This document shows, one piece after another, positions 7,243-38,927 of a stretch of DNA of 48,604 bases (the first letter of the stretch is position 1; the number at the start of each line of letters is the position of its first letter). The stretch is from an uncultured Candidatus Saccharibacteria bacterium. Its GTDB lineage: Bacteria; Patescibacteriota; Dojkabacteria; SC72. The position numbers and the translations under genes were made by a program. Location of the stretch: the NCBI GenBank assembly GCA_964526165.1, contig CAZGKK010000001.1:1-48604 (forward strand). The letters run 5' to 3'. The notes beneath the pieces are model-generated. The model worked only from the letters and a program-made list of their open reading frames with translations, was not told where the DNA came from and did no database searches.

Positions 7243-7243
7243 T

Positions 7244-8800: not shown

Positions 8801-8821
8801 TTAACTAATATTTTCTCAAAA

Positions 8822-11308: not shown

Positions 11309-11386
11309 AACCCAATATTTTAGCAAACTCATTTACTAATTGCCAGCCCTGTTTCTCATTTCAACTAAATCTGCTAATATGTTCTT

Positions 11387-12178: not shown

Positions 12179-12195
12179 TTTTAACAAAACGTAAA

Positions 12196-13590: not shown

Positions 13591-13607
13591 ACAGTATTAT
13601 ATATTTA

Positions 13608-21701: not shown

Positions 21702-21740
21702 CTAAGAAGGCAAATGCTTTAACTTTTGCCTATCCAAAAT

Positions 21741-23522
21741 ATGGAAGAGGTCAGAAGAGTAACCACAACAAAAAAGAGTAACCGGTTAGTTAACACACTA
21801 TTAATTGTTGCTGGGGCTTTAGGATTGGCTTTAATCCTAGTGGCCATATATTTCTACATGATTAAACCCAACACACAGAAACCGCAAGTCACATCAAAAG
21901 TTTGTGTGTGTTACTATGTTGACCCAGCTGTTACCACTGAGTGTGGAGATCCAAGGAAAGGATTTCTTTTCAAAGAGGTAACTACGCAAGGGGATACTTC
22001 ATGTCAAAGTCAGTGTCAAACAAGCTCATTATCTATGACTGACATTGAGAGTAACACAAAGCAAGAGCTTTTCTTGTCCTGTTCTATGTCCAGTATTCAA
22101 GATACAAGATGTACCGAAATGACAATTTTGAACAAAGCCGGAAAAATTGTTGTTGGGAATATACCTGAAGATGAAGAAATTACTGTGGAAGCCAAATTTG
22201 ACAAGAAATATGAGAATCCAACATTCAAAATCAACAATACTAACGAAGAGCCAGATTCTATATCTGATGATGGCCTTAGTATAAAGAAAAAATTCTCGTC
22301 ATTTAAGACAACTACTCTTGATATTGTTGCAACTGCTGACGGAGAAGACGGAGAACCTATTAATTCGCCACTTTGTAAAAGATTAATTGAGGTAGAACAG
22401 AAAGGACAATCGTCCGTTACGGGTCTACTACTATCTAAAAGAAACACAGAAACTACTACAAAGATTTCTGAGGCCATCCTTAGGATATCAAATGTTACAG
22501 ATGCAAATGATATAAAGATTAGTTTCTCTTTTGACAATGAAGATTTCGCAGAATTAAGTATGATGAAAGGTTTTTCTCTCGATACTTCAAGAGGTGAATT
22601 CTCCATTATTGAACAAGATTTGTACAATTCAGAGAACTTTGTAGATGCAGTAAGTTTCTCCCAATTAGATGGATATATTGGAGAGCTTACTGTGAAAACG
22701 GAAATTTCAAGATTAGGTGCTTCTCTTGGAAGCGCCGAAGCAACAATTACATTTGACGAGCCTGAGACTGAACCAGAGGAACCAGAAGAACCAGAGGAAC
22801 CGGAAGAACCAGAGGAACCGGAAGAACCATTAGAATCGAATTTCTCAATTACAACTACAACCAACCTCACTTGTATTGAAAGAGTTGAACCAAATAATAC
22901 GATAATCTTTACTGTTAATATCAAAAACAATTCAACAATTTCTCAAAGTGTTTTAGGGATTACAGATAAATTACCCCTCGGTTTTACATATATTGCAGAC
23001 TCAACAAAAATCAATAACATAAGCATGTCAGATAGAAACTACTTAACGACTGAGCAAGTAGGTGAGACAACAGAGCTTGTATGGGAAACAGCTGATGGTT
23101 GGTCTATTGATTCAAACCAATCTTTAGTAATTGTTTTCCAAGCTATTGCTGGACCAAATGCACTCACCGGAGAAAACCAAAACGAAGTTGTAATTGAACC
23201 TGCTCAAGTTCCAACTGACCCAGCGACATTAAGAGCATCTTCAGCAGTGACTGTCTCTCAAAACTGTAATCCAACAGATGAGACTGAACAAACACCTGAA
23301 ACGGGAATCTTTGATGAAATAGCAATCCAAATTGGAGCCGGAATACTTGTCATTCTTGTAGGTTGGTACATACACTCAAAACCATTTGGACAATTACTTG
23401 CAAAAAAGGTAGTAAATTCTGGAGTTTTCCATGGAGCTGAAATGACATCTTGGAAATTATTCAAACCAAAGAAATACTTCGAAGAGATTACGATTAAGAA
23501 AATAAAGAAGAAAGGAAGTTAG
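21741..23522 (+). CDS. Surface protein with (PEE)n linker, DUF11-like repeat domain and C-terminal TM (the track start at 21726 is TTG)
   Basis: N-terminal TM (LVNTLLIVAGALGLALILVAIYFYMI) and a Cys-rich segment. PEEPEEPEEPEEPEEPEEP linker. DUF11-like block (ITDKLPLGFTYIADSTKIN). TPETG is followed by the hydrophobic helix IAIQIGAGILVILVGWYIH. Confidence 0.6.
   Translation: MEEVRRVTTTKKSNRLVNTLLIVAGALGLALILVAIYFYMIKPNTQKPQVTSKVCVCYYVDPAVTTECGDPRKGFLFKEVTTQGDTSCQSQCQTSSLSMTDIESNTKQELFLSCSMSSIQDTRCTEMTILNKAGKIVVGNIPEDEEITVEAKFDKKYENPTFKINNTNEEPDSISDDGLSIKKKFSSFKTTTLDIVATADGEDGEPINSPLCKRLIEVEQKGQSSVTGLLLSKRNTETTTKISEAILRISNVTDANDIKISFSFDNEDFAELSMMKGFSLDTSRGEFSIIEQDLYNSENFVDAVSFSQLDGYIGELTVKTEISRLGASLGSAEATITFDEPETEPEEPEEPEEPEEPEEPEEPLESNFSITTTTNLTCIERVEPNNTIIFTVNIKNNSTISQSVLGITDKLPLGFTYIADSTKINNISMSDRNYLTTEQVGETTELVWETADGWSIDSNQSLVIVFQAIAGPNALTGENQNEVVIEPAQVPTDPATLRASSAVTVSQNCNPTDETEQTPETGIFDEIAIQIGAGILVILVGWYIHSKPFGQLLAKKVVNSGVFHGAEMTSWKLFKPKKYFEEITIKKIKKKGS
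22761..22829 (+). repeat. In-frame 9-nt (gaaccagag/gaaccggaa) tandem repeat encoding (PEE)n
   Basis: Read directly in the 22761-22829 interval; encodes EPETEPEEPEEPEEPEEPEEPEEP. Confidence 0.85.
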
Positions 23523-24443: not shown

Positions 24444-24740
24444 ATGCCAAATTTAAAAACATCTATCAAAGACTTACGAAAGAGCCAAAGGAGAGAGACA
24501 ATAAACAACAGGCTTAGAAACAGAGTCAAAAGAGTTACAAAAAAACATGCCAATTTAGTCAAACAGGGAAACAAGGAAGAAGTAAAAAAGAATCTAATCA
24601 ATGTTTACAAGATCCTTGATAAAGCTGCAAAGAAGAATGTTATAAAAAAAGGTAAAGCTGATAGGTTAAAATCAAGACTTACCAAAAATTTAAACAAACT
24701 AGCCCAAGATAATGTCAAAACTTCTAAAAAGGATTCTTAA
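24444..24740 (+). CDS. rpsT: 30S ribosomal protein S20
   Basis: 98 aa. MPNLKTSIKDLRKSQRRETINNRLRNRVK and the basic helical composition are typical of S20. Confidence 0.9.
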   Translation: MPNLKTSIKDLRKSQRRETINNRLRNRVKRVTKKHANLVKQGNKEEVKKNLINVYKILDKAAKKNVIKKGKADRLKSRLTKNLNKLAQDNVKTSKKDS

Positions 24741-25260
24741 AATTTCAGTTTGGCCTGCTGTTTTAATGATTGCAGGAAAACTTTTAGGAATTATTATTGC
24801 AAATATTGCTTACAAGTTAGATTTTTTCATTGACAACCAAATTCAAGGTATTTTTTCCATCCAGCTCTACTATACTGATACGGCAACAACACTACTTGTA
24901 AACTCTGTATCGAACCTTTTTATGATAATCATTTTAGCAGTACCCACTATTTACTTCATCATCAAAACTTCAATATATCAATCAACTCTTCAAAATCCTA
25001 GAACCATAGTAAAAATTACGAAATTGAATGTACTAAGTTGGATAACAAAAAATGACACATCATTCCTCCTTATTTTTGTTTGGTGCTCGTTCCTTCTAGT
25101 AGCTTCATTAATCATTATTGCTCAAAGTATTCAAGGAATTTCATACTCATGGATCGGAGGACTCTCTGCTGTGTTAGCAATATTCTCAATATGGGGAACT
25201 ATAAAGACATATGAATTGGAAATTGATAAAATATATCCAAAAGAGAAGGAGCTATATTAA
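24712..25260 (+). CDS. Hypothetical polytopic membrane protein (start uncertain; overlaps rpsT by 29 nt)
   Basis: 182 aa with about 4-5 hydrophobic helices. No recognisable motif. Confidence 0.45.
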   Translation: MSKLLKRILKISVWPAVLMIAGKLLGIIIANIAYKLDFFIDNQIQGIFSIQLYYTDTATTLLVNSVSNLFMIIILAVPTIYFIIKTSIYQSTLQNPRTIVKITKLNVLSWITKNDTSFLLIFVWCSFLLVASLIIIAQSIQGISYSWIGGLSAVLAIFSIWGTIKTYELEIDKIYPKEKELY

Positions 25261-25808
25261 TGAAAAAACAAAACTTACTACCACAAATTGTCGAACCTTT
25301 TGCCATAGTTGTATTGCTAGCTTTCTTCATTGTCCCAACCCTTACTGTGATTAATCTCTCACCAATAACAAAGGAAGTAAAAAAAGAGAATGTACTTGGT
25401 GTAAACACATTTAGTTCAAATATCGATGTAAGAGACTTAGGAGGTTTCCATGAAATTATTAAGGGAGAAAGTCTATCTAAGACAAACGAGAGTGAGTATT
25501 TGTACAAAACAACAATACATAGAAGAGATAATTTAAAAACATATTCGAAACCAATTCTTCAGATTCAAAACAATGGTTTTTCACCAGTAGTCCTCTCATT
25601 CTACGGCTATACAGATAGTAGAACTGATACAAAGGTTACACTCAAAATCGGAAGAAATTCATATCTACTAAGAGATGAGAATGGTCAATTATATCATCAA
25701 GATTTTTTCCTAGAACCAACATCTAATACAACAGTCTACTTATATCTTGAGAACAGTAATAGGATACTTTTTTCTGAAAACTTTGAGATGGAGCTGTCTA
25801 TTAAGTAA
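25260..25808 (+). CDS. Hypothetical secreted/anchored protein
   Basis: 182 aa. N-terminal hydrophobic segment (FAIVVLLAFFIVPTL). TAATG coupling to the upstream ORF. Confidence 0.45.
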   Translation: MKKQNLLPQIVEPFAIVVLLAFFIVPTLTVINLSPITKEVKKENVLGVNTFSSNIDVRDLGGFHEIIKGESLSKTNESEYLYKTTIHRRDNLKTYSKPILQIQNNGFSPVVLSFYGYTDSRTDTKVTLKIGRNSYLLRDENGQLYHQDFFLEPTSNTTVYLYLENSNRILFSENFEMELSIK

Positions 25809-27722: not shown

Positions 27723-28774
27723 TGATTAAGAAAATTAAGCTCATAAATTTTAGAAGGTTTGAAAGCTTTGAAATAAATATTGAGAAAGATATCATAGTTT
27801 TTCATGGTGACAATGCCGTAGGAAAAAGTACAATATTAGAAGCTATCTATGTTCTTTCAAATGGGAAATCTCCCTGGGCAACATCTGATGAGTATATACT
27901 TACAGAACAGTCCGAAGAAGACAAATACTGCAGAATTGAAATTACTACAAAGGAAGATGAAGAAAAAGTCTACTCATACTACAAAACTCCAAATAGAAGA
28001 ATATTAAAAATTAATGAAAAAAATGTTCCTTTAAACAGATTTTTCGCAGAGAATGCTGCAACGATATTCAATCCAGAAAAAATTGAAATACTGATGATAT
28101 CACCAAGTAAAAGAAGAGAATTCTTAGACGAAATTCTTTCTACCTTAGACTATGAATATGTTGAGATAATGAAACGGTTTCGAAAAGTACTTAAACAGAG
28201 AAATGCATATCTAAAAAAATTAGCAAAACAATTCTACGAGAGAGGAGTAATCGCTAGAAATGATCCTCAGCTCGTTTTCTGGACAAGAGAATTTTTGAAA
28301 GAAGCGAATAGAATTCAAGCGATGAGAAAAAGTTTGTCCGAAAAACTTAAAACTAAAGATTTGAAAATAGAATATATCAAATCAAATGGAGAGATTGCAT
28401 TGGAAGATTCCCTTGAGAATTCAACTAAAAGAGATATCGCAACAGGATACACAAATGTTGGTCCACACAGAGATGACTGGCAATTAATAAACGGAAAAGA
28501 TATTAAGAAATATGGATCAAGAGGAGAAAAAAGACTTTCTATTGGGAAACTAATATTCGAAACTCAGAAAATTATGAAGAGGGAACTTGGATACTACCCT
28601 ATTCTTCTACTTGATGATATAGCTTCTGAGCTGGATGAGAAAAACACAGCGAGCATTTTTGATCCAAAAATATTAAACAAACAACAAACCTTTATAACTA
28701 TCATTAATTACAAGAATCTTCCAAAAGATGTTTTAGAAAAAGCGCAATTAATTGATTTGAATCAATTAGATTAA
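27722..28774 (+). CDS. recF: DNA replication and repair protein RecF
   Basis: 350 aa. Walker A GDNAVGKSTILEAI, the GPHRDD motif and Walker B LLLDDIASELD. Start overlaps the lepA stop by 1 nt. Confidence 0.85.
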   Translation: MIKKIKLINFRRFESFEINIEKDIIVFHGDNAVGKSTILEAIYVLSNGKSPWATSDEYILTEQSEEDKYCRIEITTKEDEEKVYSYYKTPNRRILKINEKNVPLNRFFAENAATIFNPEKIEILMISPSKRREFLDEILSTLDYEYVEIMKRFRKVLKQRNAYLKKLAKQFYERGVIARNDPQLVFWTREFLKEANRIQAMRKSLSEKLKTKDLKIEYIKSNGEIALEDSLENSTKRDIATGYTNVGPHRDDWQLINGKDIKKYGSRGEKRLSIGKLIFETQKIMKRELGYYPILLLDDIASELDEKNTASIFDPKILNKQQTFITIINYKNLPKDVLEKAQLIDLNQLD

Positions 28775-29548
28775 CTTTAAGGTGTCCGAATACTCCTCAA
28801 TTTTTTTTGCTTTAAAGTCCTTAGGGAAAAATTCTATCTTCCCGATTTTAGAATTCCTCCTTAATCTTCTTATTTCAGGTTTGTGATTACTCAAGATCAT
28901 GAAAAGGACTTGAGAAAAGTAAAACATTTTATCTAATATTAGGAAAATTAGATTTGAACTTTTCTGAGGTTCGATATCTGTCTTCAATAAATCTTTCCTA
29001 ACACCATATTTATGGATTAACCATTTGTTCTCAAAGTATATGTAATGAAGATAATCGTTATTATATATTGGCTTCATGAACATCAGCTCATGAAAGTTAA
29101 AGATATCATCCTCAAGATGCAAGCCTCTCTCTTCAGAAACAAAATTCAAGCAAATCTTATCCTTAGATTCTCTATGTCTTTTGGCCCGAATTTTATTATG
29201 AAATAAATTTTTAATAGATACTACTCCCCTGTAAAGCCACATACTGTTGTTTTTCACAACCACATATACATCAATATCATCCTCTTCTCTTGCAAAACCT
29301 GCCCCAACCGAACCCGTTACAGCAATGAATTTAACTAAGTTTAAGGCTAGGAGTGAGGAAATATTTTGTTTGGCAATATCAAGTTTTTTTTCAACAAATT
29401 TATTTCTATTCCTCTTCGGAATATTTTTACTCATTTCAGCCTCATTTTTCTTAAGGTACCTATTCCCCCATATCCTCACAATATCGTCTTTTGAAAGGGA
29501 TAAATTCATTAAAGAACGGAATTTTTTTAATTGGATATATTTTTCCAC
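28766..29548 (-). CDS. Pol-beta-superfamily nucleotidyltransferase-domain protein, function unknown
   Basis: 260 aa. AVTGSVGAGFAREEDDIDVYVV fits the GS...DxD minimal NTase motif. The remainder is helical with no recognised domain. Confidence 0.5.
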   Translation of the reverse strand: MEKYIQLKKFRSLMNLSLSKDDIVRIWGNRYLKKNEAEMSKNIPKRNRNKFVEKKLDIAKQNISSLLALNLVKFIAVTGSVGAGFAREEDDIDVYVVVKNNSMWLYRGVVSIKNLFHNKIRAKRHRESKDKICLNFVSEERGLHLEDDIFNFHELMFMKPIYNNDYLHYIYFENKWLIHKYGVRKDLLKTDIEPQKSSNLIFLILDKMFYFSQVLFMILSNHKPEIRRLRRNSKIGKIEFFPKDFKAKKIEEYSDTLKLI

Positions 29549-29627
29549 TCTCTATTATATATTATTTGTCATGAGTACTAATAATATCTTTAATTATCTG
29601 TTAAACTGTAGTATATAATTACTGCCT

Positions 29628-30458
29628 ATGAAGCAACACGCAATACCTCAAAATGTATTAGATGTAGAGTTCAAGCTTTTTACTAAGTTTACACTTAAAG
29701 AATTTGCCTATTTAGCTATTGGTGTTGGTTTAGGAGGCTTAATACTCTACCTAACAGTAGGTGGACACATCCCTGGACTAATAGGTATTCCCTTTTTCAT
29801 TCTCTCATCTTTAGCAGGAATCTTCCTTTCTTTGGTTCCAATTAATGACCAACCTGCTGACAAATTTATACAAAACTACATCAAAGCCATTACAAGTCCA
29901 ACGCAAAGAGCATGGATTAGTAAAAAAGACCCTCAAAATCGTGCAAAACCGGGGGTCAAACCTTCGGAGGATGGAAAGTTGATTGCTAAAGATTCAAAAG
30001 AGAAAAAAAAGAGAATCATAGGAGCTCAACCAGTAAAACCTACATTTGAAGAGCCTGTTTCAATAATCCAAGAAGAGATTGATAAGGAGCTGGATGCACT
30101 GGAAAATTCTGAACCAAAAAGTTTCAACCCTTCTAATATATTTATAACTGAAGACAATATCTCTCAGTATCAATTTAACGCCAAGGGTTTTGAAAATCTG
30201 CCTGGCAATATTAATCTTTGGCTTTGTACAAAAGAATTTAAACCCATATCTAACATTGTAGCCTCATTGAAAGATGAAAAAGGGAATTTACTTTACGCAA
30301 ACAAGACCGGAAGTAATGGATATTTCTTAACTAATAAAAAATGGAGTCCCGGAAGATATTCAGTTGAATTCTCAAGTGAAGAATTCAATATACCAACTGT
30401 AAGCATATTCTTAAGTGGGAAAGAGAATAATTTGCCAATTAAAATAACAGCAATTTAA
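29628..30458 (+). CDS. PrgI-like (VirB3-type) membrane protein with C-terminal beta-sandwich extension
   Basis: 276 aa. IPQNVLDVEFKLFTKFTLKEFAYLAIGVG, two TM helices and QPADKFIQNYIKAITSPTQRAW match the PrgI-family layout. The tail (GNLLYANKTGSNGYFLTNKKWSPGRYSVEF) looks like a carboxypeptidase-regulatory-like fold. Confidence 0.6.
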   Translation: MKQHAIPQNVLDVEFKLFTKFTLKEFAYLAIGVGLGGLILYLTVGGHIPGLIGIPFFILSSLAGIFLSLVPINDQPADKFIQNYIKAITSPTQRAWISKKDPQNRAKPGVKPSEDGKLIAKDSKEKKKRIIGAQPVKPTFEEPVSIIQEEIDKELDALENSEPKSFNPSNIFITEDNISQYQFNAKGFENLPGNINLWLCTKEFKPISNIVASLKDEKGNLLYANKTGSNGYFLTNKKWSPGRYSVEFSSEEFNIPTVSIFLSGKENNLPIKITAI

Positions 30459-30459
30459 T

Positions 30460-31098
30460 ATGGATAGAAATGCAAGAGCAAGAGCGACAGCTTCAACACA
30501 GGATCATATTGCTATCAGAGATATTAGAGATGATTTAATCATCAACAGAAATGGGAGTGTGGCAATGGTAATACAAACTTCTGCCATTAACTTTGACTTA
30601 CTTGCAGAATATGAACAAGACAATAAAATCCTAGCATTTGCAGGACTTTTGAATTCTTTGAACTTCAGAATTCAAATTATGATTAGGACTAAAAGAATTG
30701 ATATTACAAACTACATTACATATCTTCAAGCACAAGAGAAACAGGCTATGAGTGAAGGTCTTAAAAAACAACTTCAAATCTATACCAAATTTGTAAAGAA
30801 TTTAATAGTTCAAAACGATGTTTTAGACAAAAGTTTCTTCATTGTAGTACCTTATCATACAGGCTCCATTGTACCAAACACCTCAATTCTTAAAGGAAAA
30901 CAAACTAAAGAGGAGGAACAAAAGAACCAAAACGTACAAACAGAACAATTAGTTGAGAAAGCAAAAATATTCCTCTATCCTAAAAGAGATCATATTCTTA
31001 AGCAATTAGGAAGAATGGGCCTATTTGGACATCAATTAACAACAAAGGAGTTAATTACCGAATTTTACACTGTATATAATCCAGAGGAAGAATCATAA
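30460..31098 (+). CDS. Hypothetical protein of the PrgI/VirB4 operon
   Basis: 212 aa, soluble, translationally coupled on both sides. IAIRDIRDDLIINRNGSVAMVIQTSAINFDLLAEYEQ loosely resembles the start of VirB4/TraC N-domains (weak, by eye). Confidence 0.45.
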   Translation: MDRNARARATASTQDHIAIRDIRDDLIINRNGSVAMVIQTSAINFDLLAEYEQDNKILAFAGLLNSLNFRIQIMIRTKRIDITNYITYLQAQEKQAMSEGLKKQLQIYTKFVKNLIVQNDVLDKSFFIVVPYHTGSIVPNTSILKGKQTKEEEQKNQNVQTEQLVEKAKIFLYPKRDHILKQLGRMGLFGHQLTTKELITEFYTVYNPEEES

Positions 31099-33536
31099 TG
31101 GATAACGAGATAACTAAAAATATAAATAAGATTGAGAGCAAAACAAATGTCTTACTTGAAGAAAAGGCTTCACAACTACATTCTTTTGATCAAAGGTACT
31201 CTACTTTTAAAGAGAATGTGAAGGTAGAACCCCCTAAACCCAAAAAAGAAGTGCCTTTAGTGGAAAAATTTGCAGACCCTAACGAGGAAGCAGAAAAAAA
31301 CAAAAAGATTAATCCCTTGTTTAAAATTCTTGATAATCTGAAAGGCAAGAAAACAACAAAGAGTGTCAAGGATGAGGGGCCACAAGAGGTTATCACAGAA
31401 GAACCAATTAATATTGGAGAAACTCTTGGAGTAGATTCAAATATGCACGTAGAAGATTTATTAGCTCCAATAGATATGGAAGTCGATTTTAATCACCTAG
31501 AGATGGGGGGATACTTTTTTAGAACTCTCTTTGTAAGTGGATACCCTCGTTTTGTTGGTCCTAACTGGCTTTCACCAATAATCAATTTTGAACATTCCTT
31601 AAGGATAAGTACTTTCTATTACCCTGTTGACTCAAAAAGTATTCTTGACAAATTAAGAAAAAAAATCGGAGAGATGGAGGCTACTCTTTACACACAGATG
31701 GAAGACAGGAAGGTCATTGACCCAACTCTTAAGGTTGCATTGTCCGATGCTCAAATGCTTCAAGATTCAATAGCAGAAGGCACCGAAAAATTCTTCCATT
31801 TCTCCATGTACATTACTCTTTATGCAAAGGATAAAGATCAGTTGGAAAAAATATCTAGAAATGTAATCTCAACCTTCGCTGCTATTAATGCCACAGCCAA
31901 ACCAGCAACTCTTCAACAGGAGGATGCCTTTTTGAGTACACAACCAAGAGGAATTGACAACCTATACATCACAAGAAATATGGATACTACTTCCTTGGCT
32001 ACGACATTTCCTTTTGTAACATCAGAATTAACTATGGATCATGGAATTATGTATGGATTAAATATGCACAACAAAAGTTTAGTAGTATTTGACCGTTTTG
32101 AATTAGAAAACGCTAACTCCGTAATATTCGCAAAGTCAGGAGCAGGTAAAAGTTACTTTGTTAAACTCGAAGCCATAAGAAGTTTAATGCTTGGAACAGA
32201 AATAATTATAATCGACCCTGAAAGAGAATATGATAATCTGGCAAAAGCTGTAAATGGGGCATATATCTCATTCTCCCAAGACAAAGGACACAAGATGAAT
32301 CCCTTTGAACTTTCTGGAGTAACAGAAGAGGGAGATGATGAATTAAGAATGAAACTGCTAGCACTTCACGGATTTTTTAAAGTCTTATTTGATGAAGTTA
32401 CTAATATTGAAGAATCAATCCTTGATAGGGCACTAATTCTTACCTATCGAGAAAAAGGAATAACTTTTGACCCAATAACCCAAACAAAACCTGCTCCTCT
32501 ACTTGAAGACTTATACAAAGTATTGAAGGGTATGGCGGAGACAGAAGCCCATGGATTAGCACGAAGATTAGAAAAATACATAATTGGAAGTGGAGCTGGA
32601 GTATTTAATGAGGCTAGTAATTTTGAAATAAACAATCCATTTACAGTCTTTAGTGTTAGAGATCTTCAAGAAGAACTGAAACCATTAGCTATGTACCTTA
32701 TGCTTGATTTCATTTGGACAAGAATTAGAAAAGATAAAAGAAGGAGAATATTAATTGTTGATGAAGCATGGTATATGATGCAATCAGAAGATTCTGCTAA
32801 ATTTATGTATTCTATTGCTAAAAGAGCAAGAAAATACTATTTGGGTCTTTCAACAATAACCCAAGATGTTGCTGACTTCTTAGGTAATGAAATGGGCCGT
32901 GCAATTATCTCAAACTCATCTGTTCAAGTTCTAATGAAACAGAGCCCGTCCGCTGTTGATTTACTACAAAAAGTTTTTAATTTATCAGATGGAGAAAGAA
33001 ACTACCTCCTTAACTGTGACAAAGGACAAGGTCTGTTCTTTGCTGGTCAAAATCATGTAGGGATACAAGTTCTTTCAAGCGTTGCAGAGCATGAGATTAT
33101 TACCTCCGACCCTAGAGACTTGGAGAAATTAAAACTCAGAGAAGGAGTAACCGATACAAGAACAATCGAGGAACTTGCTCAAATATTTGATCCTCCAGCA
33201 GTTCAACAACCAATGAGAGATGGTAACAATAGCAGAGAAAGTGAAATAATTACTGGAGCAATTGAAAAAAAGGAAAAACAAAGGCTTCTTCTTCAAGATG
33301 AGAGAATCCAATATCAAGAAGAACTTGAGAAAAGGCTTGCAGAGCAAGAAAAAATCATTAATCCAGACAAATACAAGAATCAAGATACTTTCATTGACCA
33401 ATTAAATCAACAAACACTTACCGGACAGGTCCTTTCATCTAGAAAAGGTATTCAACGAGATAGAAAGCATTTAACACCTCAGGGAGTTGTGGAAAGTTAC
33501 CCTGAAGAAAGTAACGAGAACAATGAGTCTATTTAG
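31098..33536 (+). CDS. VirB4/TraC-like type IV secretion ATPase
   Basis: 812 aa. VirB4-type N-domain (GGYFFRTLFVSGYPRFVGPNWL), Walker A FAKSGAGKSYFVK, Walker B RRILIVDEAWYMM, LSTITQDVADF and GQGLFFAG motifs, and a charged coiled C-terminal extension. Confidence 0.8.
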   Translation: MDNEITKNINKIESKTNVLLEEKASQLHSFDQRYSTFKENVKVEPPKPKKEVPLVEKFADPNEEAEKNKKINPLFKILDNLKGKKTTKSVKDEGPQEVITEEPINIGETLGVDSNMHVEDLLAPIDMEVDFNHLEMGGYFFRTLFVSGYPRFVGPNWLSPIINFEHSLRISTFYYPVDSKSILDKLRKKIGEMEATLYTQMEDRKVIDPTLKVALSDAQMLQDSIAEGTEKFFHFSMYITLYAKDKDQLEKISRNVISTFAAINATAKPATLQQEDAFLSTQPRGIDNLYITRNMDTTSLATTFPFVTSELTMDHGIMYGLNMHNKSLVVFDRFELENANSVIFAKSGAGKSYFVKLEAIRSLMLGTEIIIIDPEREYDNLAKAVNGAYISFSQDKGHKMNPFELSGVTEEGDDELRMKLLALHGFFKVLFDEVTNIEESILDRALILTYREKGITFDPITQTKPAPLLEDLYKVLKGMAETEAHGLARRLEKYIIGSGAGVFNEASNFEINNPFTVFSVRDLQEELKPLAMYLMLDFIWTRIRKDKRRRILIVDEAWYMMQSEDSAKFMYSIAKRARKYYLGLSTITQDVADFLGNEMGRAIISNSSVQVLMKQSPSAVDLLQKVFNLSDGERNYLLNCDKGQGLFFAGQNHVGIQVLSSVAEHEIITSDPRDLEKLKLREGVTDTRTIEELAQIFDPPAVQQPMRDGNNSRESEIITGAIEKKEKQRLLLQDERIQYQEELEKRLAEQEKIINPDKYKNQDTFIDQLNQQTLTGQVLSSRKGIQRDRKHLTPQGVVESYPEESNENNESI

Positions 33537-33774
33537 TAAAAATGATAAAAAAGAAGAACCAGTAACACCGATTAGAGAAGAATTATATCTTGTAACAAAA
33601 GCTGTAGATACTACTACACTGCCAAAGGATATTTTATCTTCTGATTTCGAACAGTTAACTAAAGCAGAAGAAAAAAACAAATACAGAACTAATATCGCAA
33701 AATCTATTAGGAATCCTCAAATCTCCAGAGCCGTATCTGCTTTAAAATTAAGAAATCCTTTTAAGGGTGTTTAA
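33523..33774 (+). CDS. Small hydrophilic hypothetical protein (last gene of the operon)
   Basis: 83 aa from the ATG at 33523 (the track start at 33487 is TTG). Overlaps the VirB4-like stop by 14 nt. No motifs. Confidence 0.35.
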   Translation: MSLFSKNDKKEEPVTPIREELYLVTKAVDTTTLPKDILSSDFEQLTKAEEKNKYRTNIAKSIRNPQISRAVSALKLRNPFKGV

Positions 33775-34961
33775 CTCAAAGGTCCCTGATCTACATTAAT
33801 AAATTCTGAGAGATTATCTCTTGTTATCATTATCGGTGTAGGAATACCTTCCACTATTTTTCTTGCTGCACTTCTAATTATTGTTCCAATGTTTCTTTCT
33901 AATTGTCTAATACCAGCATCAAAACCAACGGGTCTAATTACTGAAATCCATACATCGTCTGCAATATTGATTTGGTCTGTAGTTAAATTGTACTCTTCCA
34001 AAACCTCAGGAAGGATATATTGTTTTGCAATTACTTCTTTTTCTCCATCTGAATAACTAGTAAATCTGATAACCTCCACTCTATCCAACAATGCTGCTGA
34101 AAGACCCCCCAGGTTGTTTGCAGTACATATGAACATAACCTTTGATAAATCAATTGGATGATCAATATAGTGATCAACAAAAGAAGCATTCTGCTCTGGA
34201 TCTAATACTTCAAGAAGCGTTGCCATTACATCGTTTAGTAGACCTGCATTTCCACTAGATTTCTCGATTTCATCTAAAAGAATTACGGGATTCATCGTAC
34301 CACATCGAATTAAGGATTTTACAATTTGTCCTGGTTCTCCATCTAAGGAATATCTTGGGGTACCCCTCAGAGTTCTTACATCACCTATTGCACCTAAAGA
34401 TACTCTAGCAAACTTCCTGTTTAATGAATTCGCGATTGATTTGGCGATACTAGTTTTACCTACACCTTGTAATCCTAAAAAGAGAAACACAGGGGTTGAA
34501 ACATGATGTACCGTGTTTACCTTTGGAAGTTCTCTTTGGAGTAAATCTACATCGTTTTGCATTTGGAGCTGCGTTGGGATACTTTCTCTGGAGAGATTAT
34601 TTCCATGCTTAAGCTGCATTGATGCTAGGTAATCAAGAATAAGATTTTTTACAGATTCCATACCATGATGGCTTGAATCCATTATTTTTTTAGCTTCTGA
34701 GATATCTAGACTATCTTCTGAATATGTTGTCCAAGGGATTCTTACTATCCAGTCAATATATTTACTAACAGTCTCGAACTCATTACTGTATCCACCCATT
34801 CGAACCATCCTTTTTAAACGATTGATTGACTGAATACATTCCCCCTTTAAAGTATGCGGGGCTGACGAAGCGAGTAATTTGTTTTCTAAAGTAAGTATCT
34901 CGCTAACACTCTCATCAACTGCTGTATCTACTAAATTGTTGTTTTGAAAATCCATATACAT
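33771..34961 (-). CDS. Lon-family AAA+ ATPase module without protease domain
   Basis: 396 aa. YIDWIVRIPW, Walker A GLQGVGKTSIAKSIA, Walker B VILLDEIEK, LLEVLDPEQNASFVDHYIDHPIDLSKVMFICTAN, LLDRVEVIRF and GIRQLERNI are near-canonical Lon AAA+ motifs. The ORF stops where the Ser-Lys protease domain normally begins. Confidence 0.8.
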   Translation of the reverse strand: MYMDFQNNNLVDTAVDESVSEILTLENKLLASSAPHTLKGECIQSINRLKRMVRMGGYSNEFETVSKYIDWIVRIPWTTYSEDSLDISEAKKIMDSSHHGMESVKNLILDYLASMQLKHGNNLSRESIPTQLQMQNDVDLLQRELPKVNTVHHVSTPVFLFLGLQGVGKTSIAKSIANSLNRKFARVSLGAIGDVRTLRGTPRYSLDGEPGQIVKSLIRCGTMNPVILLDEIEKSSGNAGLLNDVMATLLEVLDPEQNASFVDHYIDHPIDLSKVMFICTANNLGGLSAALLDRVEVIRFTSYSDGEKEVIAKQYILPEVLEEYNLTTDQINIADDVWISVIRPVGFDAGIRQLERNIGTIIRSAARKIVEGIPTPIMITRDNLSEFINVDQGPLS

Positions 34962-35112: not shown

Positions 35113-36732
35113 ATGAAAAAATTTACTTTGTTTTTTTCAATTCTTTTTCTTTTTTTATTTACAACAAAGTCTTTTGCAGCAGATGTAAAACTGATTGACA
35201 ACTCAACCTTAAACGAAAAATTGATAACGGTCTCAATAGATACCCAAGAGCAGTCAACAGAGAATGTAAAAATTGTTCTCAACTATTCTCCCGAAGTTAC
35301 AATTACGAAGATTAACGAATCTGAGTTGAATTGCTCTACATTCTCTTCAATATATACTGGGAACACAGCAGAAATAACTTGTGCCTTATCGTCATCTCAA
35401 AATGTTAATGGAAAACTTGCAGAAATTATCTTTACTTCAACCTCTGAAAAGTATGCTTTTGTAGTAGATAAGACTCAATCTCAAATTGGAGAGTTGACTA
35501 TTGATAATGTAGTAGATTTAGGTCAGCTTAATGCAGAAGGGACAATAACTGATGGCGATACAACGACTGGGACCGATGAAAACCCAATAGAGACGACTGA
35601 GGGAAATCAGCCAGCAACCGCACCAAGTACAATATCGACAACACAAAAAGAGACTACCAGCTTTATGTCCTTTCTTCCATACATACTTTTAGGAGCTGCA
35701 GGAATATTTCTAATAGCAATTATTGTTCTTTTAATAACAAAAAAGAAAGATGATATAACTCCAAATACGTTACAAACTCCTGCACAAATACCACAGCAAC
35801 CTGCTGTCCCTCCATTAATTAACCCTCAACCACAAGAAGTAACACAGACACAAAATGAGAGTATGCAAGGAAATGTTTCAAATGTTGAGACAAAACCTAC
35901 TTTGGAACAACTGGTTACCCAATCTCCAGACGTATCGAGCTCTACGGTACCGATGATGCCTACAACACAGACAACTAATACCCCAAAAGAAGAAGAGCTT
36001 TCTGATTTGGAAGCCTTGCTAGTAAGTGAGAATCCAAGTCTTAATACAGTACCTCAAGAGCCAGTAATTGAACCCCCCGCAGAACCGAACACTCAGCCTG
36101 CATCCCAGACTTCTCAAAATTTACCTCCTATTGAGAATACGGATACAAATTTGGGATATACTGCAAATATATCTACAGGTGGCCTTCCTGAGGTAGGTTC
36201 AACATCTCCATTGGAACCCTCTTACCAAGTTTCTCCAGATCTTGGATCAATCGAGCAACCTATTGTAGAGCCAGCAATCTCTGAAGCTCCCGTGGTTGGT
36301 ATGACTACAACAAACCCCATGCCCGAAGTTACCCCAGCAGAAATGGACATGAATACTCCTGTTAGCACCCCACTGAACAACTCCTTCGCACAAGTAAATG
36401 CCGAACCCACACTTACTCAACCCACTGAGAATTCTACACCAGAAATAATTGATACCCCAACAGGAATGGACATGAATACTCCTGTTAGCACCCCACTGAA
36501 CAACTCCTTCGCACAAGTAAATGCCGAACCCACACTTACTCAACCCACTGAGAATTCTACACCAGAGATAATTGATACAGGATTAGAGGTTGATCTGCAA
36601 AGCATAATAAATCAAGAAATTAGTAGCATCCCATTAAACTCTACTCCAACAAACACTGAACCACAGAATCCAGTAACACCAATGAACCCAATCAATACAA
36701 CTGAGCCAACAAATCCAGTGAGTCCCATTTAG
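35113..36732 (+). CDS. Bitopic surface protein: signal peptide, cohesin-like domain, TM, long P/T/Q-rich tail
   Basis: 539 aa. Signal peptide MKKFTLFFSILFLFLFTTKSFA and a cohesin-like N-domain (KIVLNYSPEVTITKI...GKLAEIIFTS). TM FLPYILLGAAGIFLIAIIVLLI followed by TKKKDD. About 330 aa of low-complexity tail with a 41-aa tandem duplication. Confidence 0.6.
   Translation: MKKFTLFFSILFLFLFTTKSFAADVKLIDNSTLNEKLITVSIDTQEQSTENVKIVLNYSPEVTITKINESELNCSTFSSIYTGNTAEITCALSSSQNVNGKLAEIIFTSTSEKYAFVVDKTQSQIGELTIDNVVDLGQLNAEGTITDGDTTTGTDENPIETTEGNQPATAPSTISTTQKETTSFMSFLPYILLGAAGIFLIAIIVLLITKKKDDITPNTLQTPAQIPQQPAVPPLINPQPQEVTQTQNESMQGNVSNVETKPTLEQLVTQSPDVSSSTVPMMPTTQTTNTPKEEELSDLEALLVSENPSLNTVPQEPVIEPPAEPNTQPASQTSQNLPPIENTDTNLGYTANISTGGLPEVGSTSPLEPSYQVSPDLGSIEQPIVEPAISEAPVVGMTTTNPMPEVTPAEMDMNTPVSTPLNNSFAQVNAEPTLTQPTENSTPEIIDTPTGMDMNTPVSTPLNNSFAQVNAEPTLTQPTENSTPEIIDTGLEVDLQSIINQEISSIPLNSTPTNTEPQNPVTPMNPINTTEPTNPVSPI
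36343..36579 (+). repeat. Near-perfect 123-nt in-frame tandem duplication inside the 35113 CDS
   Basis: atggacatgaatactcctgttagc... starts at 36343 and again at 36466. It encodes MDMNTPVSTPLNNSFAQVNAEPTLTQPTENSTPEIIDT twice. One synonymous difference was seen (gaa/gag in PEII). Confidence 0.9.
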
Positions 36733-37331: not shown

Positions 37332-38927
37332 CTACGACCTATCAACAAACTCAGCTTTAGAATCTATTTTGGGGCACTTAATTCTTTTTTGCAAACCATT
37401 CCAAATCGGGTCTCTCATATTCAAATTCCTTAACCATTCATAGACTAACACTCGATATGCAATATGCCCACCATTTCTTACACGCAAGTTAATTACATAC
37501 TGCAAATCGTCATAGGAACCGTACATGATATATTTTGTGGAGTGAGCATGTGGTAATAGATATTTTGTATACTCATCGCAAACTTCATTAGAAAGAAATT
37601 CTTTGGCTTTTGCTCTCCAAGCTTTAATCATTGAGTATGTCTCACTCAGTGTATTCTTGTATTCTCTCTTTAATTCCTTGAGCTGAGGAATATCTAAATA
37701 GTTACAAAGATAGAAACACTCGTCATCTCTTCTATCTAACTCCTGATCCATATCTATCTCATCGTGTAAAAGCGGAATAAATCGTTCTAAGCTCCTATGC
37801 CTATTCAAATCTTTTAAGGTACCTAAAGTAGCAAATCCTTCAATTTTAACTGCTCCGCTTTGAGCTATGTTTCCAATTGTCTTGTGTTGATTATGTTTTT
37901 CAGCAAGTATTTCTCCAATATATTCCTGATCTTCTTCATCAAAATTGTATTCCTTCTCTGAACCTAAAGGATTCAACAAAGCTTCATAATGAGATATTAA
38001 CCCTTCTGTAAAATCTGTGGCATAGGAAACATTTACAGAACTCCCCTCACTCTCAGGAATTGCTATTATTTGCCTTCTATTTAAATCTTTTTTGAGATGG
38101 TTAAGTATCTCCCTTGTTGAATTTCCTCTACTACTATTTGATTCTGTATGTCGTATAAGGTTATCTGCTTCTCGGATATATCCCCTAGCATCCAGGCTTG
38201 ACTCCCCAAGAAGGTTCAAAGCTAATTCAGCAATTTCATTATCGATTACACTTTCACTACCAAAAAGATAACCAATGAAATCTGACCACGCTCTGGCAGA
38301 CATAACCAAGGCATCACTTGTACTCAAACCTACTGGAAGTAAATATTTTGCAACATCAAAAGACCTAGCCTTTAAGGAGGATATCTCTTGGGCACTTTCT
38401 TCATTTATTTTAAAGAATTTTGATAATTCTTCCTTAGTTAATTTAAGAAGTCTTTTGTAATCTGCTAATTGCTTAAATATAATACTCTCATACTCTTTTC
38501 TTATAGATTGATTGCTACAAATCTCATTTGGAATTTTTATGAAATTTGGATCAGAGAAATCCTGATACCTAGTTGACCTTTCTTGTCCTGCTATTACCGG
38601 ATTTATGTAGAAGAATTTCATAGCTGTTATTATCGGAATATTTTCAATACATACAAAAAGCTCTGCCATATCACCCACAGATTTGTGTCCATATCCTGAA
38701 AATATTTTTTCTAATCTTTCCGAAGCATCTGTTCCATTGTTTATTATTTCAGAAGCTATGTCTAGAATAGAATCTGAAGACCTACTATACCTTGCACCTA
38801 GATATGCGTTAATTGCGGGCTGTTTTACATTACAGTTTTGTAACAGAGAGTGAACTATCATCTTGTTCCATGATGATTCCGACTTAACCGTAGCGATATT
38901 TAAATCTTTTCTAAAAATCAATTTCAT
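37332..38927 (-). CDS. ThyX-like (Thy1 family) flavin-dependent thymidylate synthase, long form
   Basis: 531 aa. GHKSVGDMAELFVCIENIPIITAMKFF...AGQERSTRY resembles the ThyX core. RHR occurs only later (LNRHRSLERF). C-terminal LRVRNGGHIAYRVLVYEWL fits the ThyX tail. Context is dcd upstream-of-stop neighbour, glyA and folD. Confidence 0.55.
   Translation of the reverse strand: MKLIFRKDLNIATVKSESSWNKMIVHSLLQNCNVKQPAINAYLGARYSRSSDSILDIASEIINNGTDASERLEKIFSGYGHKSVGDMAELFVCIENIPIITAMKFFYINPVIAGQERSTRYQDFSDPNFIKIPNEICSNQSIRKEYESIIFKQLADYKRLLKLTKEELSKFFKINEESAQEISSLKARSFDVAKYLLPVGLSTSDALVMSARAWSDFIGYLFGSESVIDNEIAELALNLLGESSLDARGYIREADNLIRHTESNSSRGNSTREILNHLKKDLNRRQIIAIPESEGSSVNVSYATDFTEGLISHYEALLNPLGSEKEYNFDEEDQEYIGEILAEKHNQHKTIGNIAQSGAVKIEGFATLGTLKDLNRHRSLERFIPLLHDEIDMDQELDRRDDECFYLCNYLDIPQLKELKREYKNTLSETYSMIKAWRAKAKEFLSNEVCDEYTKYLLPHAHSTKYIMYGSYDDLQYVINLRVRNGGHIAYRVLVYEWLRNLNMRDPIWNGLQKRIKCPKIDSKAEFVDRS

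What the first reader, a model, noticed from the sequence alone, without database searches (positions are those of the whole stretch)
29628..33774. Minimal, chromosomally embedded PrgI-like / unknown / VirB4-like ATPase / small-ORF operon with no other T4SS or mobility genes
Seen: four translationally coupled genes (gaps or overlaps of +1, -1 and -14 nt). The first has a PrgI/VirB3-type layout. The third is an 812-aa VirB4/TraC-type ATPase with intact Walker A and B. Not seen in this window: VirB6-like channel, VirD4 coupling protein, relaxase, pilin, VirB1 hydrolase, integrase, or flanking tRNA or direct repeats. The neighbours are housekeeping genes (lepA-recF on one side, the dcd/thyX/glyA/folD operon a few kb away). 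Established: VirB3 and VirB4 form the conserved inner-membrane energising core of type IV secretion and conjugation systems. Inference: this is a pared-down T4SS-derived machine rather than a conjugative element. Candidate roles are DNA uptake (recF and comF are also in the window) or delivery and uptake of material at a host-cell interface in an episymbiont. The 212-aa middle protein and the 83-aa tail protein have no assignable function and would be the novel components.
Basis: partly seen in the sequence, partly recalled or inferred. Interest (0 to 1): 0.7.

Follow-up and report, generated by a model that had tools for sequence, protein, structure and literature searches.

The report
Known Patescibacteria type IV secretion core
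This four-gene operon is the Candidatus Dojkabacteria copy of the chromosomal type IV secretion core (PrgI/VirB3, TrsD, VirB4) already catalogued across Patescibacteria, so it is real and probably important to the cell, but it is not a new kind of system.

Summary
Four co-directional, translationally coupled genes lie at 29628-33774, and the window contains no tRNA, flanking repeat, relaxase, coupling protein, VirB6, pilin or hydrolase.

- **Gene 1** is a PrgI/VirB3 protein (Pfam above threshold). It carries an extra C-terminal transthyretin/CnaB-like beta-sandwich.
- **Gene 2**, the "unknown" 212-aa protein, is TrsD-like. It corresponds to the N-terminal domain of a full-length VirB4, so genes 2 and 3 together make a split VirB4.
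- **Gene 3** is a CD1110-family VirB4 ATPase (NCBIfam above its curated cutoff).
- **Gene 4** (83 aa) is a real gene under purifying selection. It always overlaps the VirB4 stop codon. Its family is tiny (23 cluster representatives among 1.84 billion proteins) and was seen only in these loci. Its function is unknown.

The cassette and its lepA-recF/Lon flanks are collinear in every informative locus from 80 related genomes. TrsD and VirB4 are about as conserved as LepA. It is therefore vertically inherited core genome, not an ICE remnant.

The PrgI-TrsD-VirB4 triad, its chromosomal location and its lack of a relaxase were described for Patescibacteria, Dojkabacteria included, in 2025. Homologous genes are essential in Southlakia. 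Whether the system is truly "minimal" cannot be judged from one window.

The parts
29549..29627 (.). 79-bp AT-rich intergenic region between the divergent nucleotidyltransferase gene and the first gene of the operon. It is the presumed promoter region.
   Evidence: Position only. The consensus promoter scan was no better than shuffled sequence. This assignment is inferred, not shown.
29628..30458 (+). PrgI/VirB3-like membrane protein, 276 aa
   Evidence: Pfam PF12666 scores 32.3 bits, above the gathering score of 27. There are two hydrophobic helices at about residues 26-44 and 50-69. Homologues are named 'PrgI family protein' by NCBI. dN/dS is 0.08-0.14.
29643..29909 (+). PrgI domain (residues 6-94): a transmembrane hairpin followed by the conserved motif PINDQxADxFIxNYxxAITxPTQRxW
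   Evidence: Pfam match. This is the most conserved part of the protein in alignment A2. The AF2 model shows helices 9-44, 50-69 and 77-89.
30135..30455 (+). C-terminal beta-sandwich domain (residues 170-276), transthyretin/CnaB/SdrD-B-like, joined to the PrgI domain by a variable lysine-rich linker
   Evidence: AF2 pLDDT is about 88-93. The best Foldseek PDB matches are SdrD B domains, the carboxypeptidase D transthyretin-like domain and CnaB2, at E 7e-5 to 1e-3. There are weak Pfam SdrD_B and CarboxypepD_reg matches. The domain is present in all 66 full-length homologues found in the related loci (256-370 aa). It is absent from the PrgI proteins of Pontibacillus (116 aa) and C. botulinum (132 aa).
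30460..31098 (+). TrsD-like protein, 212 aa, soluble. It is the stand-alone counterpart of the VirB4 N-terminal domain.
   Evidence: NCBIfam TrsD/TraD NF041427, E 2.4e-6. It also matches positions 101-269 of the 894-position VirB4_plasma model (E 8e-6), while the ATPase matches positions 270-892 of the same model. hhalign places it on residues 24-199 of C. botulinum VirB4. The top 14 Foldseek PDB hits are all TrwK/VirB4. It is 28% identical over 209 aa to the gene directly upstream of the Pontibacillus VirB4. Median identity across related loci is 71%.
31098..33536 (+). VirB4-family ATPase, 812 aa (CD1110 / MPF-FATA type). It lacks the canonical N-terminal domain and has low-complexity N- and C-terminal tails.
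   Evidence: NF045971 scores 390.5 bits, above the cutoff of 325. PDB 4ag5 (Thermoanaerobacter VirB4 C-terminal domain) matches at E 6e-49. The best plasmid relatives are from monoderm bacteria, at no more than 38% identity.
32130..32153 (+). Walker A motif AKSGAGKS (residues 345-352)
32748..32765 (+). Walker B motif ILIVDE (residues 551-556)
33523..33774 (+). orf4: an 83-aa hydrophilic, basic small protein with conserved YLVT..VD and AEEK motifs and a conserved C-terminal AL+L.NPFKG[VYI] tail. Its function is unknown.
   Evidence: It is present in 62 related loci. In nearly all of them (all but two with truncated reading frames) it overlaps the VirB4 stop codon, by 8-71 nt. dN/dS is 0.09-0.25 outside the overlaps. 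It has no transmembrane segment and its last 25 residues carry a net charge of +6. It has no Pfam or NCBIfam match. Only 23 cluster representatives, 49-94 aa long, were found among 1.84 billion proteins, and none is fused to a larger protein.

Best explanation
The operon encodes the cytoplasmic-membrane energising core of the Patescibacteria-type type IV secretion system, in a Candidatus Dojkabacteria (WS6) chromosome. This system is a chromosomal, relaxase-less descendant of the conjugation machinery of monoderm bacteria (MPF-FATA).

Proposed mechanism:
- PrgI/VirB3 sits in the membrane as a two-helix hairpin.
- Its conserved cytoplasmic segment binds TrsD, which is the VirB4 N-terminal domain expressed as a separate polypeptide.
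- TrsD docks the VirB4 ATPase, which lacks that N-terminal domain, at the membrane.
- ATP hydrolysis by the VirB4 oligomer then drives assembly of, and/or transport through, a channel and possibly a pilus. Those other parts would be encoded elsewhere or be too divergent to recognise.
- The likely role is exchange of macromolecules with a host cell rather than conjugation.

Two features specific to this lineage are added. One is a beta-sandwich domain fused to PrgI, probably cytoplasmic by the positive-inside rule. The other is an 83-aa basic protein translationally coupled to VirB4.

Shown here: the gene identities, the split-VirB4 relationship, vertical inheritance and strong purifying selection. 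Inferred: the protein-protein contacts, the existence of the remaining parts, the substrate and the host-interface role.
For: - **Identities.** PrgI is above the Pfam threshold. VirB4 of the CD1110 family is above the NCBIfam cutoff, and TrsD/TraD matches at E 2.4e-6.
- **Split VirB4.** TrsD and the ATPase map to complementary parts of one VirB4 model, positions 101-269 and 270-892. TrsD aligns to residues 24-199 of C. botulinum VirB4 while the ATPase aligns from residue 210. The top 14 Foldseek hits for TrsD are all R388 TrwK/VirB4.
- **Same order in a monoderm replicon.** The order PrgI-like, TrsD-like, short VirB4 occurs in a Pontibacillus megaplasmid, with 28% and 38% identity for TrsD and VirB4.
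- **Vertical inheritance.** The four genes are collinear in 57 of 57 loci. recF lies upstream and Lon downstream in 56 of 56 loci, drawn from 80 species-level genomes labelled mostly Dojkabacteria/WS6.
- **Constraint.** Median identity is 71% for TrsD and 70% for VirB4, against 75% for LepA and 54% for RecF. dN/dS is 0.03-0.25.
- **No mobility signs.** There is no tRNA, repeat, integrase or relaxase.
- **Literature.** VirB4 was found in 2,417 of 3,035 Patescibacteria genomes and forms a monophyletic clade nested in MPF-FATA. TrsD is its most abundant partner, and PrgI/VirB3 is common. Relaxases are nearly absent. The preprint names Dojkabacteria among the lineages with the system (PMC12102498; 10.1101/2025.01.22.634366). 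The T4SS cluster is essential for epibiotic growth of Southlakia epibionticum (PMC10633639).
Against: - No channel (VirB6), pilin, VirB8, peptidoglycan hydrolase or coupling protein was found in this 48.6-kb window, nor within about 6 kb of virB4 in the 80 related genomes. A complete apparatus is therefore assumed, not shown.
- The TrsD match (27.5 bits) is far below NCBI's curated cutoff of 200. The hhalign probability is only 7%.
- The TrsD structure model is of low confidence (pLDDT 59.6), and its TM-scores to VirB4 are 0.28-0.37.
- A PDB profile search with TrsD found nothing.
- No VirB4 phylogeny was run, so membership of the monophyletic Patescibacteria clade is not directly shown.
- No Dojkabacteria isolate or expression data were examined.
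Confidence: 0.8

Rival explanations
1. In Dojkabacteria the four genes form a truly self-sufficient, pared-down machine with no VirB6 channel, pilus or coupling protein. The lineage-specific parts (orf4 and the PrgI beta-sandwich) would stand in for the missing components.
For: No other T4SS family was detected in the window or in the roughly 6-kb flanks of 80 related genomes, where the neighbours are the same housekeeping genes. Two lineage-specific additions are tightly linked to the core. The literature notes that VirB6 is scarce or undetectable in some classes (PMC12102498).
Against: VirB3 and VirB4 alone have no known way to form a pore across the membrane. Neither TrsD, VirB4 nor orf4 has a transmembrane segment. 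In Patescibacteria the pilins, T4CP homologues and other parts are frequently encoded far from virB4 or are too divergent for HMMs (PMC12102498). Only about 7% of a genome of roughly 0.7 Mb was inspected.
Confidence: 0.1
2. The core powers DNA uptake, in the manner of the archaeal Ced system or the Helicobacter ComB system, and cooperates with the competence and recombination genes nearby.
For: recF lies two genes upstream in 56 of 56 loci. A comF gene is present in the window. In the ABY1 class, T4SS loci often include comF, recG and radA (PMC12102498). There is a weak CedB match at 57 bits.
Against: The CedB score is far below its cutoff of 700 and far below the conjugative VirB4 score of 390. 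recF belongs to the lepA-recF unit and is separated from the operon by an oppositely oriented gene. comF is 14 kb away, beyond many housekeeping genes. The whole region is syntenic, so proximity carries little information. In Southlakia, deleting comEC abolishes competence but not viability, whereas the T4SS is essential (PMC12857230).
Confidence: 0.07
3. It is a decaying remnant of an integrated conjugative element, or an unrelated HerA/FtsK-type or defence ATPase module (for example MADS-like).
For: DUF87/HerA and AAA_10 Pfam matches. PADLOC mad8 matches the P-loop domain at 81 bits. The set of T4SS genes is incomplete.
Against: The cassette sits at the same chromosomal position in every informative locus from 80 species-level genomes. 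The reading frames and motifs are intact, dN/dS is 0.03-0.25, and conservation is LepA-like. Composition shows no shift. There is no tRNA, repeat or integrase. The VirB4-specific model scores 390 bits against 81 for mad8. No other defence-system partner was detected.
Confidence: 0.03

Closest known systems
Patescibacteria (CPR) chromosomal T4SS, e.g. Southlakia epibionticum SEML1_0006-0019 (Wang et al. 2023, PMC10633639; Quinonero-Coronel et al. 2025, PMC12102498)
   Same: PrgI/VirB3, TrsD and an MPF-FATA-type VirB4 are encoded together on the chromosome of a reduced-genome CPR bacterium, with no relaxase. The genes are highly conserved. The 2025 preprint explicitly lists Dojkabacteria as carrying this system.
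   Different: The Southlakia cluster also contains an essential VirB2-like pilin array, VirB6 and peptidoglycan hydrolases next to virB4. None of these lies near virB4 here. The locus here sits beside lepA-recF rather than dnaA/dnaN. The PrgI protein here has an extra beta-sandwich domain, and an 83-aa coupled gene follows virB4. Neither feature is mentioned in those papers.
Conjugative MPF-FATA T4SSs of Gram-positive plasmids and ICEs (pGO1/pSK41 trsC-trsD-trsE, pIP501, CTn2 CD1110 family; C. botulinum pCDC3875 examined here)
   Same: The gene order is the same: VirB3-like, then TrsD or a VirB4-N-domain protein, then VirB4. The VirB4 protein passes the CD1110-family cutoff. It is 30% identical to the pCDC3875 VirB4 over 593 aa.
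   Different: Those systems are mobile. They carry VirD4, VirB6, an SLT hydrolase and a relaxase next to virB4. Their PrgI proteins are about 116-132 aa and have no C-terminal domain. CD1110-type VirB4 keeps its own N-terminal domain.
Pontibacillus sp. ALD_SL1 megaplasmid cluster (NZ_CP062975.1, 351-361 kb)
   Same: It holds the closest homologues outside the Patescibacteria that were found: TrsD-like at 28% over 209 aa and a short 621-aa VirB4 at 38% over 586 aa. The order is PrgI-like, TrsD-like, VirB4. The replicon is typed as non-mobilizable.
   Different: It also has a pilin-like gene (Mbov_0395 family), a 779-aa polytopic protein and a large peptidoglycan endopeptidase in the same cluster. 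Its TrsD-like protein has an N-terminal transmembrane helix. It has no orf4 homologue.
R388 VirB3-VirB4 inner-membrane complex (PDB 7O41, 8RTB, 8RTD)
   Same: It gives the structural template for the proposed mechanism. VirB3 binds the VirB4 N-terminal domain and anchors the ATPase at the membrane (role as summarised in PMC12102498). The TrsD model's best PDB matches are these VirB4 chains.
   Different: It is a diderm system with a single-chain VirB4. Sequence similarity to the ATPase here is marginal (E about 5e-4).
Archaeal Ced DNA-import system (CedB)
   Same: It is a VirB4-related ATPase that has been co-opted for a role other than conjugation.
   Different: The match is only 57 bits against a cutoff of 700. 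No CedA-like partners were found.

Membership tests
Patescibacteria-type T4SS (PMC12102498) | VirB4 homologue of the monoderm MPF-FATA type | tested here: met
   NF045971 CD1110-family VirB4 scores 390.5 bits against a cutoff of 325. PDB 4ag5 matches at E 6e-49. The best plasmid relatives are all from monoderm bacteria.
Patescibacteria-type T4SS (PMC12102498) | VirB4 falls inside the monophyletic Patescibacteria clade | not tested
   No phylogeny with reference VirB4 sets was run, because VirB4 sequences from other CPR classes were not retrievable here. Indirect support: the host lineage is Dojkabacteria, which the authors list as carrying the system.
Patescibacteria-type T4SS (PMC12102498) | TrsD homologue encoded next to virB4 | tested here: met
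   NF041427 TrsD/TraD at E 2.4e-6, with mapping complementary to the ATPase on a full-length VirB4 model. The gene lies directly upstream of virB4 with a 1-nt overlap. Caveat: 27.5 bits is below NCBI's subfamily cutoff of 200.
Patescibacteria-type T4SS (PMC12102498) | PrgI/VirB3 homologue associated with virB4 | tested here: met
   PF12666 scores 32.3 bits, above the gathering score of 27. It is the first gene of the operon.
Patescibacteria-type T4SS (PMC12102498) | Chromosomal, vertically inherited, no relaxase nearby | tested here: met
   Synteny holds in 56-57 of 56-57 informative loci. No relaxase, integrase or tRNA was found.
Patescibacteria-type T4SS (PMC12102498) | VirB2-like pilins and/or VirB6 (widespread but not universal; often near virB4) | tested here: not met
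   None was found among the window's ORFs or its intergenic small ORFs. Genome-wide presence cannot be tested with these tools.
Patescibacteria-type T4SS (PMC12102498) | Required for epibiotic growth | not testable with these tools
   This is known only for Southlakia (PMC10633639). Here there is only an indirect indication: LepA-like conservation and low dN/dS.
Conjugative element (ICE or plasmid MPF-FATA T4SS) | Relaxase and type IV coupling protein linked to the mating-pair-formation genes | tested here: not met
   No MOB relaxase or VirD4/TcpA family match was found in the window.
Conjugative element (ICE or plasmid MPF-FATA T4SS) | Mobile-element boundaries and patchy distribution (integrase, tRNA or direct repeats, compositional shift) | tested here: not met
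   There are no tRNAs and no flanking repeats. GC content is even at about 0.32-0.36. The flanks are identical in related genomes.
VirB4 ATPase family | Intact Walker A and Walker B motifs in a VirB4-type P-loop domain | tested here: met
   AKSGAGKS at 345-352 and ILIVDE at 551-556. PF19044 matches at E 1e-26.
VirB4 ATPase family | N-terminal domain that binds VirB3 at the membrane | tested here: inconclusive
   The domain is absent from the 812-aa chain, which aligns only from model position 181 of 752 (CD1110) or 270 of 894 (VirB4_plasma). It appears to be supplied by TrsD. The physical interaction was not tested.
DNA-import T4SS-like systems (Ced, ComB) | CedB-type ATPase with CedA partners, or a ComB2-10 set | tested here: not met
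   CedB scores 57 bits against a cutoff of 700. No partner families were found in the window.
HerA/FtsK or MADS defence ATPases | Best match to HerA/FtsK or defence models, with the cognate partner genes | tested here: not met
   DUF87 scores 32 bits and mad8 81 bits, against 390 bits for VirB4. The other five proteins tested had no relevant PADLOC match.

The most novel reading that the evidence does not exclude
Dojkabacteria may run a remodelled T4SS in which lineage-specific parts take over roles of missing canonical components. One such part is the 83-aa basic-tailed protein coupled to VirB4, which has a conserved C-terminal AL+L.NPFKG motif and a net charge of +6 over its last 25 residues. 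It could act as a substrate-recruiting adaptor that replaces a coupling protein, or it could itself be a secreted substrate that carries a positively charged C-terminal signal. The other part is the transthyretin-like domain fused to PrgI, which could be an added docking platform.
Probability: 0.12. Interest if true: 0.55.

Novelty: already known. Interest (0 to 1): 0.25.

Why it matters
The Patescibacteria T4SS is one of the few machines shown to be essential for the epibiotic lifestyle of these ultrasmall bacteria. Its substrate and its direction of transport are still unknown.

This locus adds nothing new in kind. It does offer a clean, stripped-down and extremely conserved example:
- PrgI, TrsD, VirB4 and one small coupled gene, with no nearby accessory genes.
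- It shows clearly that VirB4 is split into TrsD plus an ATPase.
- It flags two additions restricted to these Dojkabacteria-like genomes (orf4 and the PrgI beta-sandwich) that could be tested as adaptors or substrates.

For the genome scan, the main value is to reclassify an apparent novelty as a described system.

Tried and rejected
- **Structure prediction with diverse alignments.** The TrsD model therefore had to use a shallow alignment of sequences at least 70% identical, and it came out with low confidence.
- **TrsD against PDB sequences.** A profile search found nothing, even at E 10.
- **Pfam for TrsD and orf4.** No match, even at E 10. Close TrsD homologues carry a precomputed PF26593.2 tag. 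That family is not in the local Pfam copy, and a literature search for the accession found nothing, so its name is unverified and was not used.
- **hhalign of TrsD against C. botulinum VirB4.** It gave the expected region but only 7% probability. I treat this as supporting evidence, not decisive.
- **Promoter and terminator scan.** It was no better than shuffled sequence.
- **Supplementary tables of PMC12102498.** They are truncated in the held copy, so counts of VirB6, VirB2 and T4CP for Dojkabacteria could not be read.
- **orf4 against small genes downstream of VirB4 in pCDC3875 and Pontibacillus.** No homology. The pCDC3875 92-aa protein is a membrane protein, and Pontibacillus has none.
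- **Extra DNA between orf4 and Lon in six distant loci.** In L071, the one inspected, it is an ABC transporter, not a T4SS part.
- **Defence-system reading.** PADLOC gave only a P-loop match to mad8.
- **ICE-remnant reading.** Rejected on synteny and selection.

Full report
**Observation**

The junctions are TAA-T-ATG, TAATG and a 14-nt overlap, so translational coupling is plausible throughout.

Pfam places PrgI (PF12666, 32.3 bits against a gathering score of 27) on residues 6-94 of the first protein. It places TraG-P-loop, AAA_10 and DUF87 domains on the third protein. Walker A (AKSGAGKS, 345-352) and Walker B (ILIVDE, 551-556) are intact.

I scanned every ORF of at least 100 aa in the window with Pfam. 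Those without a Pfam assignment also went through NCBIfam, and I read the intergenic small ORFs, which turned out to be rpsO, rpsT and groES. Nothing resembling VirB6, VirD4, a relaxase, a pilin, VirB1 or an integrase was found. ARAGORN finds no tRNA in the window. Repeats around the cassette are short chance matches. GC content is flat.

**Source organism**

A scan of one genome per species returned 80 loci whose VirB4 is 62-84% identical to the query. Most are labelled Candidatus Dojkabacteria or candidate division WS6; many others carry a generic 'uncultured Candidatus Saccharibacteria' label but show the same synteny. The window's RuBisCO, sortase and small-genome gene content fit a CPR bacterium.

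**Mobile element or core genome?**

I ran tblastn with the window's proteins against the 80 loci.
- The order PrgI, TrsD, VirB4, orf4 is collinear in 57 of 57 loci that contain all four genes.
- recF lies upstream and the convergent Lon-like gene downstream in 56 of 56 loci.
- Median identity is 71% for the middle protein and 70% for VirB4, compared with 75% for LepA, 54% for RecF and 67% for Dcd.
- Synonymous sites are saturated, and dN/dS is 0.03-0.14 for the first three genes.

This is vertically inherited and strongly constrained core genome. It is not an ICE remnant.

**The ATPase**

NCBIfam's equivalog model 'VirB4-like conjugal transfer ATPase, CD1110 family' scores 390.5 bits, above its cutoff of 325. 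TraC, VirB4/CagE and TrbE models score lower, and CedB scores only 57 bits. The best solved structure by sequence is the Thermoanaerobacter VirB4 C-terminal domain (4ag5, E 6e-49). The best plasmid relatives are from Streptomyces, Bacillales and Clostridia, at up to 38% identity. PADLOC gives only a P-loop-level match to mad8 at 81 bits.

**The 'unknown' middle protein**

It matches NCBIfam TrsD/TraD (E 2.4e-6). It also matches positions 101-269 of the 894-position mycoplasma VirB4 model (E 8e-6), while the ATPase matches positions 270-892 of the same model. In the CD1110 model the ATPase starts only at position 181 of 752. The two proteins are therefore complementary pieces of one VirB4.

Independent checks agree, each of them modest on its own:
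- BLAST and hhalign place the protein on residues 24-199 of the full-length C. botulinum pCDC3875 VirB4, whereas the ATPase aligns from residue 210.
- A low-confidence AF2 model (pLDDT 59.6) still returns R388 TrwK/VirB4 chains as its top 14 of 350,542 PDB chains (E 4e-3 to 0.13, TM 0.28-0.37).
- tblastn finds a 28%-identical homologue (209 aa; pairwise E 1e-24) directly upstream of a short 621-aa VirB4 (38% identical) in a Pontibacillus megaplasmid. Priestia and Miltoncostaea replicons show the same arrangement.

The literature already says that TrsD is remotely homologous to the VirB4 N-terminus and is the most abundant partner of VirB4 in Patescibacteria (PMC12102498). The middle protein is therefore assignable and is not novel.

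**The first protein**

Beyond the PrgI domain it has a variable lysine-rich linker and a well-predicted C-terminal beta-sandwich (residues 170-276, pLDDT about 90). The closest folds are SdrD B domains, the transthyretin-like domain of carboxypeptidase D, and CnaB2. All 66 full-length homologues from the related loci (256-370 aa) carry this extension. The PrgI proteins of Pontibacillus (116 aa) and C. botulinum (132 aa) do not. The protein has only two hydrophobic helices, and the sequence after the second helix is strongly basic. By the positive-inside rule the domain is therefore most likely cytoplasmic, but this is an inference.

**The fourth gene**

It is a real gene. Homologues are present in 62 loci, and nearly all of them overlap the VirB4 stop codon, by 8-71 nt. 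They share conserved YLVT..VD and AEEK motifs and a conserved C-terminal AL+L.NPFKG[VYI] tail. dN/dS is 0.09-0.25 outside the overlaps. The protein has no transmembrane segment and a basic tail. It has no Pfam or NCBIfam family.

A profile search of 1.84 billion cluster representatives found only 23 proteins at E <= 0.001. All are 49-94 aa long, and none is fused to a larger protein. The gene therefore belongs to a very small family that I saw only in these Dojkabacteria-like loci. It is tightly linked to VirB4, its function is unknown, and it is the only truly unassigned component.

**Comparison with what is known**

Quinonero-Coronel et al. (2025) found VirB4 in 2,417 of 3,035 Patescibacteria genomes. 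Nearly all fall in a monophyletic clade nested in MPF-FATA. The commonest partners are TrsD, PrgI/VirB3, VirB2-like pilins and, less often, VirB6. The system is chromosomal and almost never has a relaxase. The preprint version names Dojkabacteria among the lineages that carry it.

Wang et al. (2023) showed that the T4SS cluster of Southlakia epibionticum is essential for epibiotic growth, and they noted that it lacks coupling and relaxase proteins. A 2025 review calls these systems unique among monoderms. NCBI already names the close homologues 'PrgI family protein'. The cassette is thus an instance of a described system.

**Most likely mechanism**

PrgI anchors TrsD, the VirB4 N-domain supplied in trans. 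TrsD in turn docks the VirB4 ATPase at the membrane, as VirB3 does with the VirB4 N-terminal domain in the R388 structure. The ATPase then powers a translocon whose other parts are encoded elsewhere or are too divergent to detect. The gene identities, the split, the inheritance pattern and the selective constraint are shown here. The contacts, the remaining parts, the substrate and the host-interface role are inferred from the Southlakia work and from T4SS structural biology.

The 'minimal self-sufficient machine' reading cannot be excluded from one window, but it lacks any membrane channel. The DNA-uptake reading has no specific support. recF is in a different transcription unit, comF is 14 kb away, and the whole region is syntenic, so adjacency carries little information.

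**Verdict**

The system is already known. The residual points of interest are the small orf4 family and the PrgI-fused beta-sandwich, neither of which I found described.

Noticed in passing
window 33771-34961 (-): A 396-aa Lon-like protein that has only the AAA+ module and the Lon lid (TIGR00763 positions 256-567 of 795). It has no Lon_C protease domain and no Lon N-terminal domain. It converges on orf4 with a 4-nt overlap, and it occupies this position in 74 of 80 related loci.
   Followed up: partly
window 35113-36732 (+): A 539-aa protein with a signal peptide, a central transmembrane helix, and a long Pro/Thr/Gln-rich tail that contains a tandem repeat of about 38 aa (MDMNTPVSTPLNNSFAQVNAEPTLTQPTENSTPEIIDT). 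It has no family match and is weakly conserved in 28 loci. It may be a surface or adhesion protein.
   Followed up: no
window 28766-29548 (-): A 260-aa Pol-beta-type nucleotidyltransferase (weak Pfam matches). It overlaps the recF 3' end by 9 nt and is transcribed divergently from the T4SS operon across a 79-bp gap. It holds this position in 54 related loci. Whether it is linked to the operon is unknown.
   Followed up: no
window 24712-25260 and 25260-25808 (+): Two translationally coupled 182-aa proteins of unknown function. The first has about four transmembrane helices; the second has an N-terminal transmembrane helix and a beta-rich domain. They lie upstream of lepA and are conserved in part of the related loci. 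They have no Pfam or NCBIfam match.
   Followed up: no
window 5477-6901 (-): A RuBisCO large-subunit homologue (Pfam E 1.6e-87) in an otherwise reduced genome. From my own knowledge, this is consistent with the form II/III nucleotide-salvage RuBisCO reported in CPR lineages.
   Followed up: no
window 37332-38927 (-): An unusually long (531-aa) ThyX with two Thy1 stretches, in a dcd-thyX-glyA-folD block.
   Followed up: no
window 47929-48603 (+), runs off the end: A partial ComF/ComFC gene (TIGR00201, E 2.4e-22) with CxxC zinc-finger motifs and the phosphoribosyltransferase motif. It lies about 14 kb from the cassette.
   Followed up: yes
window 11387-12178, 13608-15965, 21726-23522 (+): A sortase and two large surface-type proteins. 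One is 785 aa with a Big_7 domain, a transmembrane helix and an acidic tail. The other is 598 aa with a DUF11 repeat, a PEEPEE linker and a C-terminal transmembrane helix. These are candidate host-adhesion proteins.
   Followed up: no
L082 (Pontibacillus sp. ALD_SL1 megaplasmid NZ_CP062975.1), locus 5279-14832: A relaxase-less T4SS-like cluster on a replicon typed as non-mobilizable, next to flagellar and chemotaxis genes. Its genes are a pilin-like protein (Mbov_0395 family), a 779-aa polytopic protein, a 116-aa PrgI-like protein, a 274-aa TrsD-like protein, a 621-aa VirB4 and a peptidoglycan endopeptidase. These are the closest relatives outside the Patescibacteria found for the window's TrsD and VirB4.
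   Followed up: partly
L081 (C. botulinum pCDC3875), locus 4366-5352: The 328-aa hypothetical protein between PrgI and VirB4 visibly resembles the region around residues 180-250 of the adjacent full-length VirB4 in the sequences printed. This suggests a duplicated VirB4 N-terminal half.
   Followed up: no
window 331-1061 (+): A Phd/YefM-like antitoxin and a PIN-domain toxin, forming a pair with a 4-nt overlap.
   Followed up: no
homologues of window 30460-31098 (P0002 and others): Close TrsD homologues carry a precomputed Pfam tag, PF26593.2. That accession is absent from the local Pfam copy, so the same proteins give no Pfam hit here, even at E 10. The name of the family could not be verified.
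   Followed up: partly
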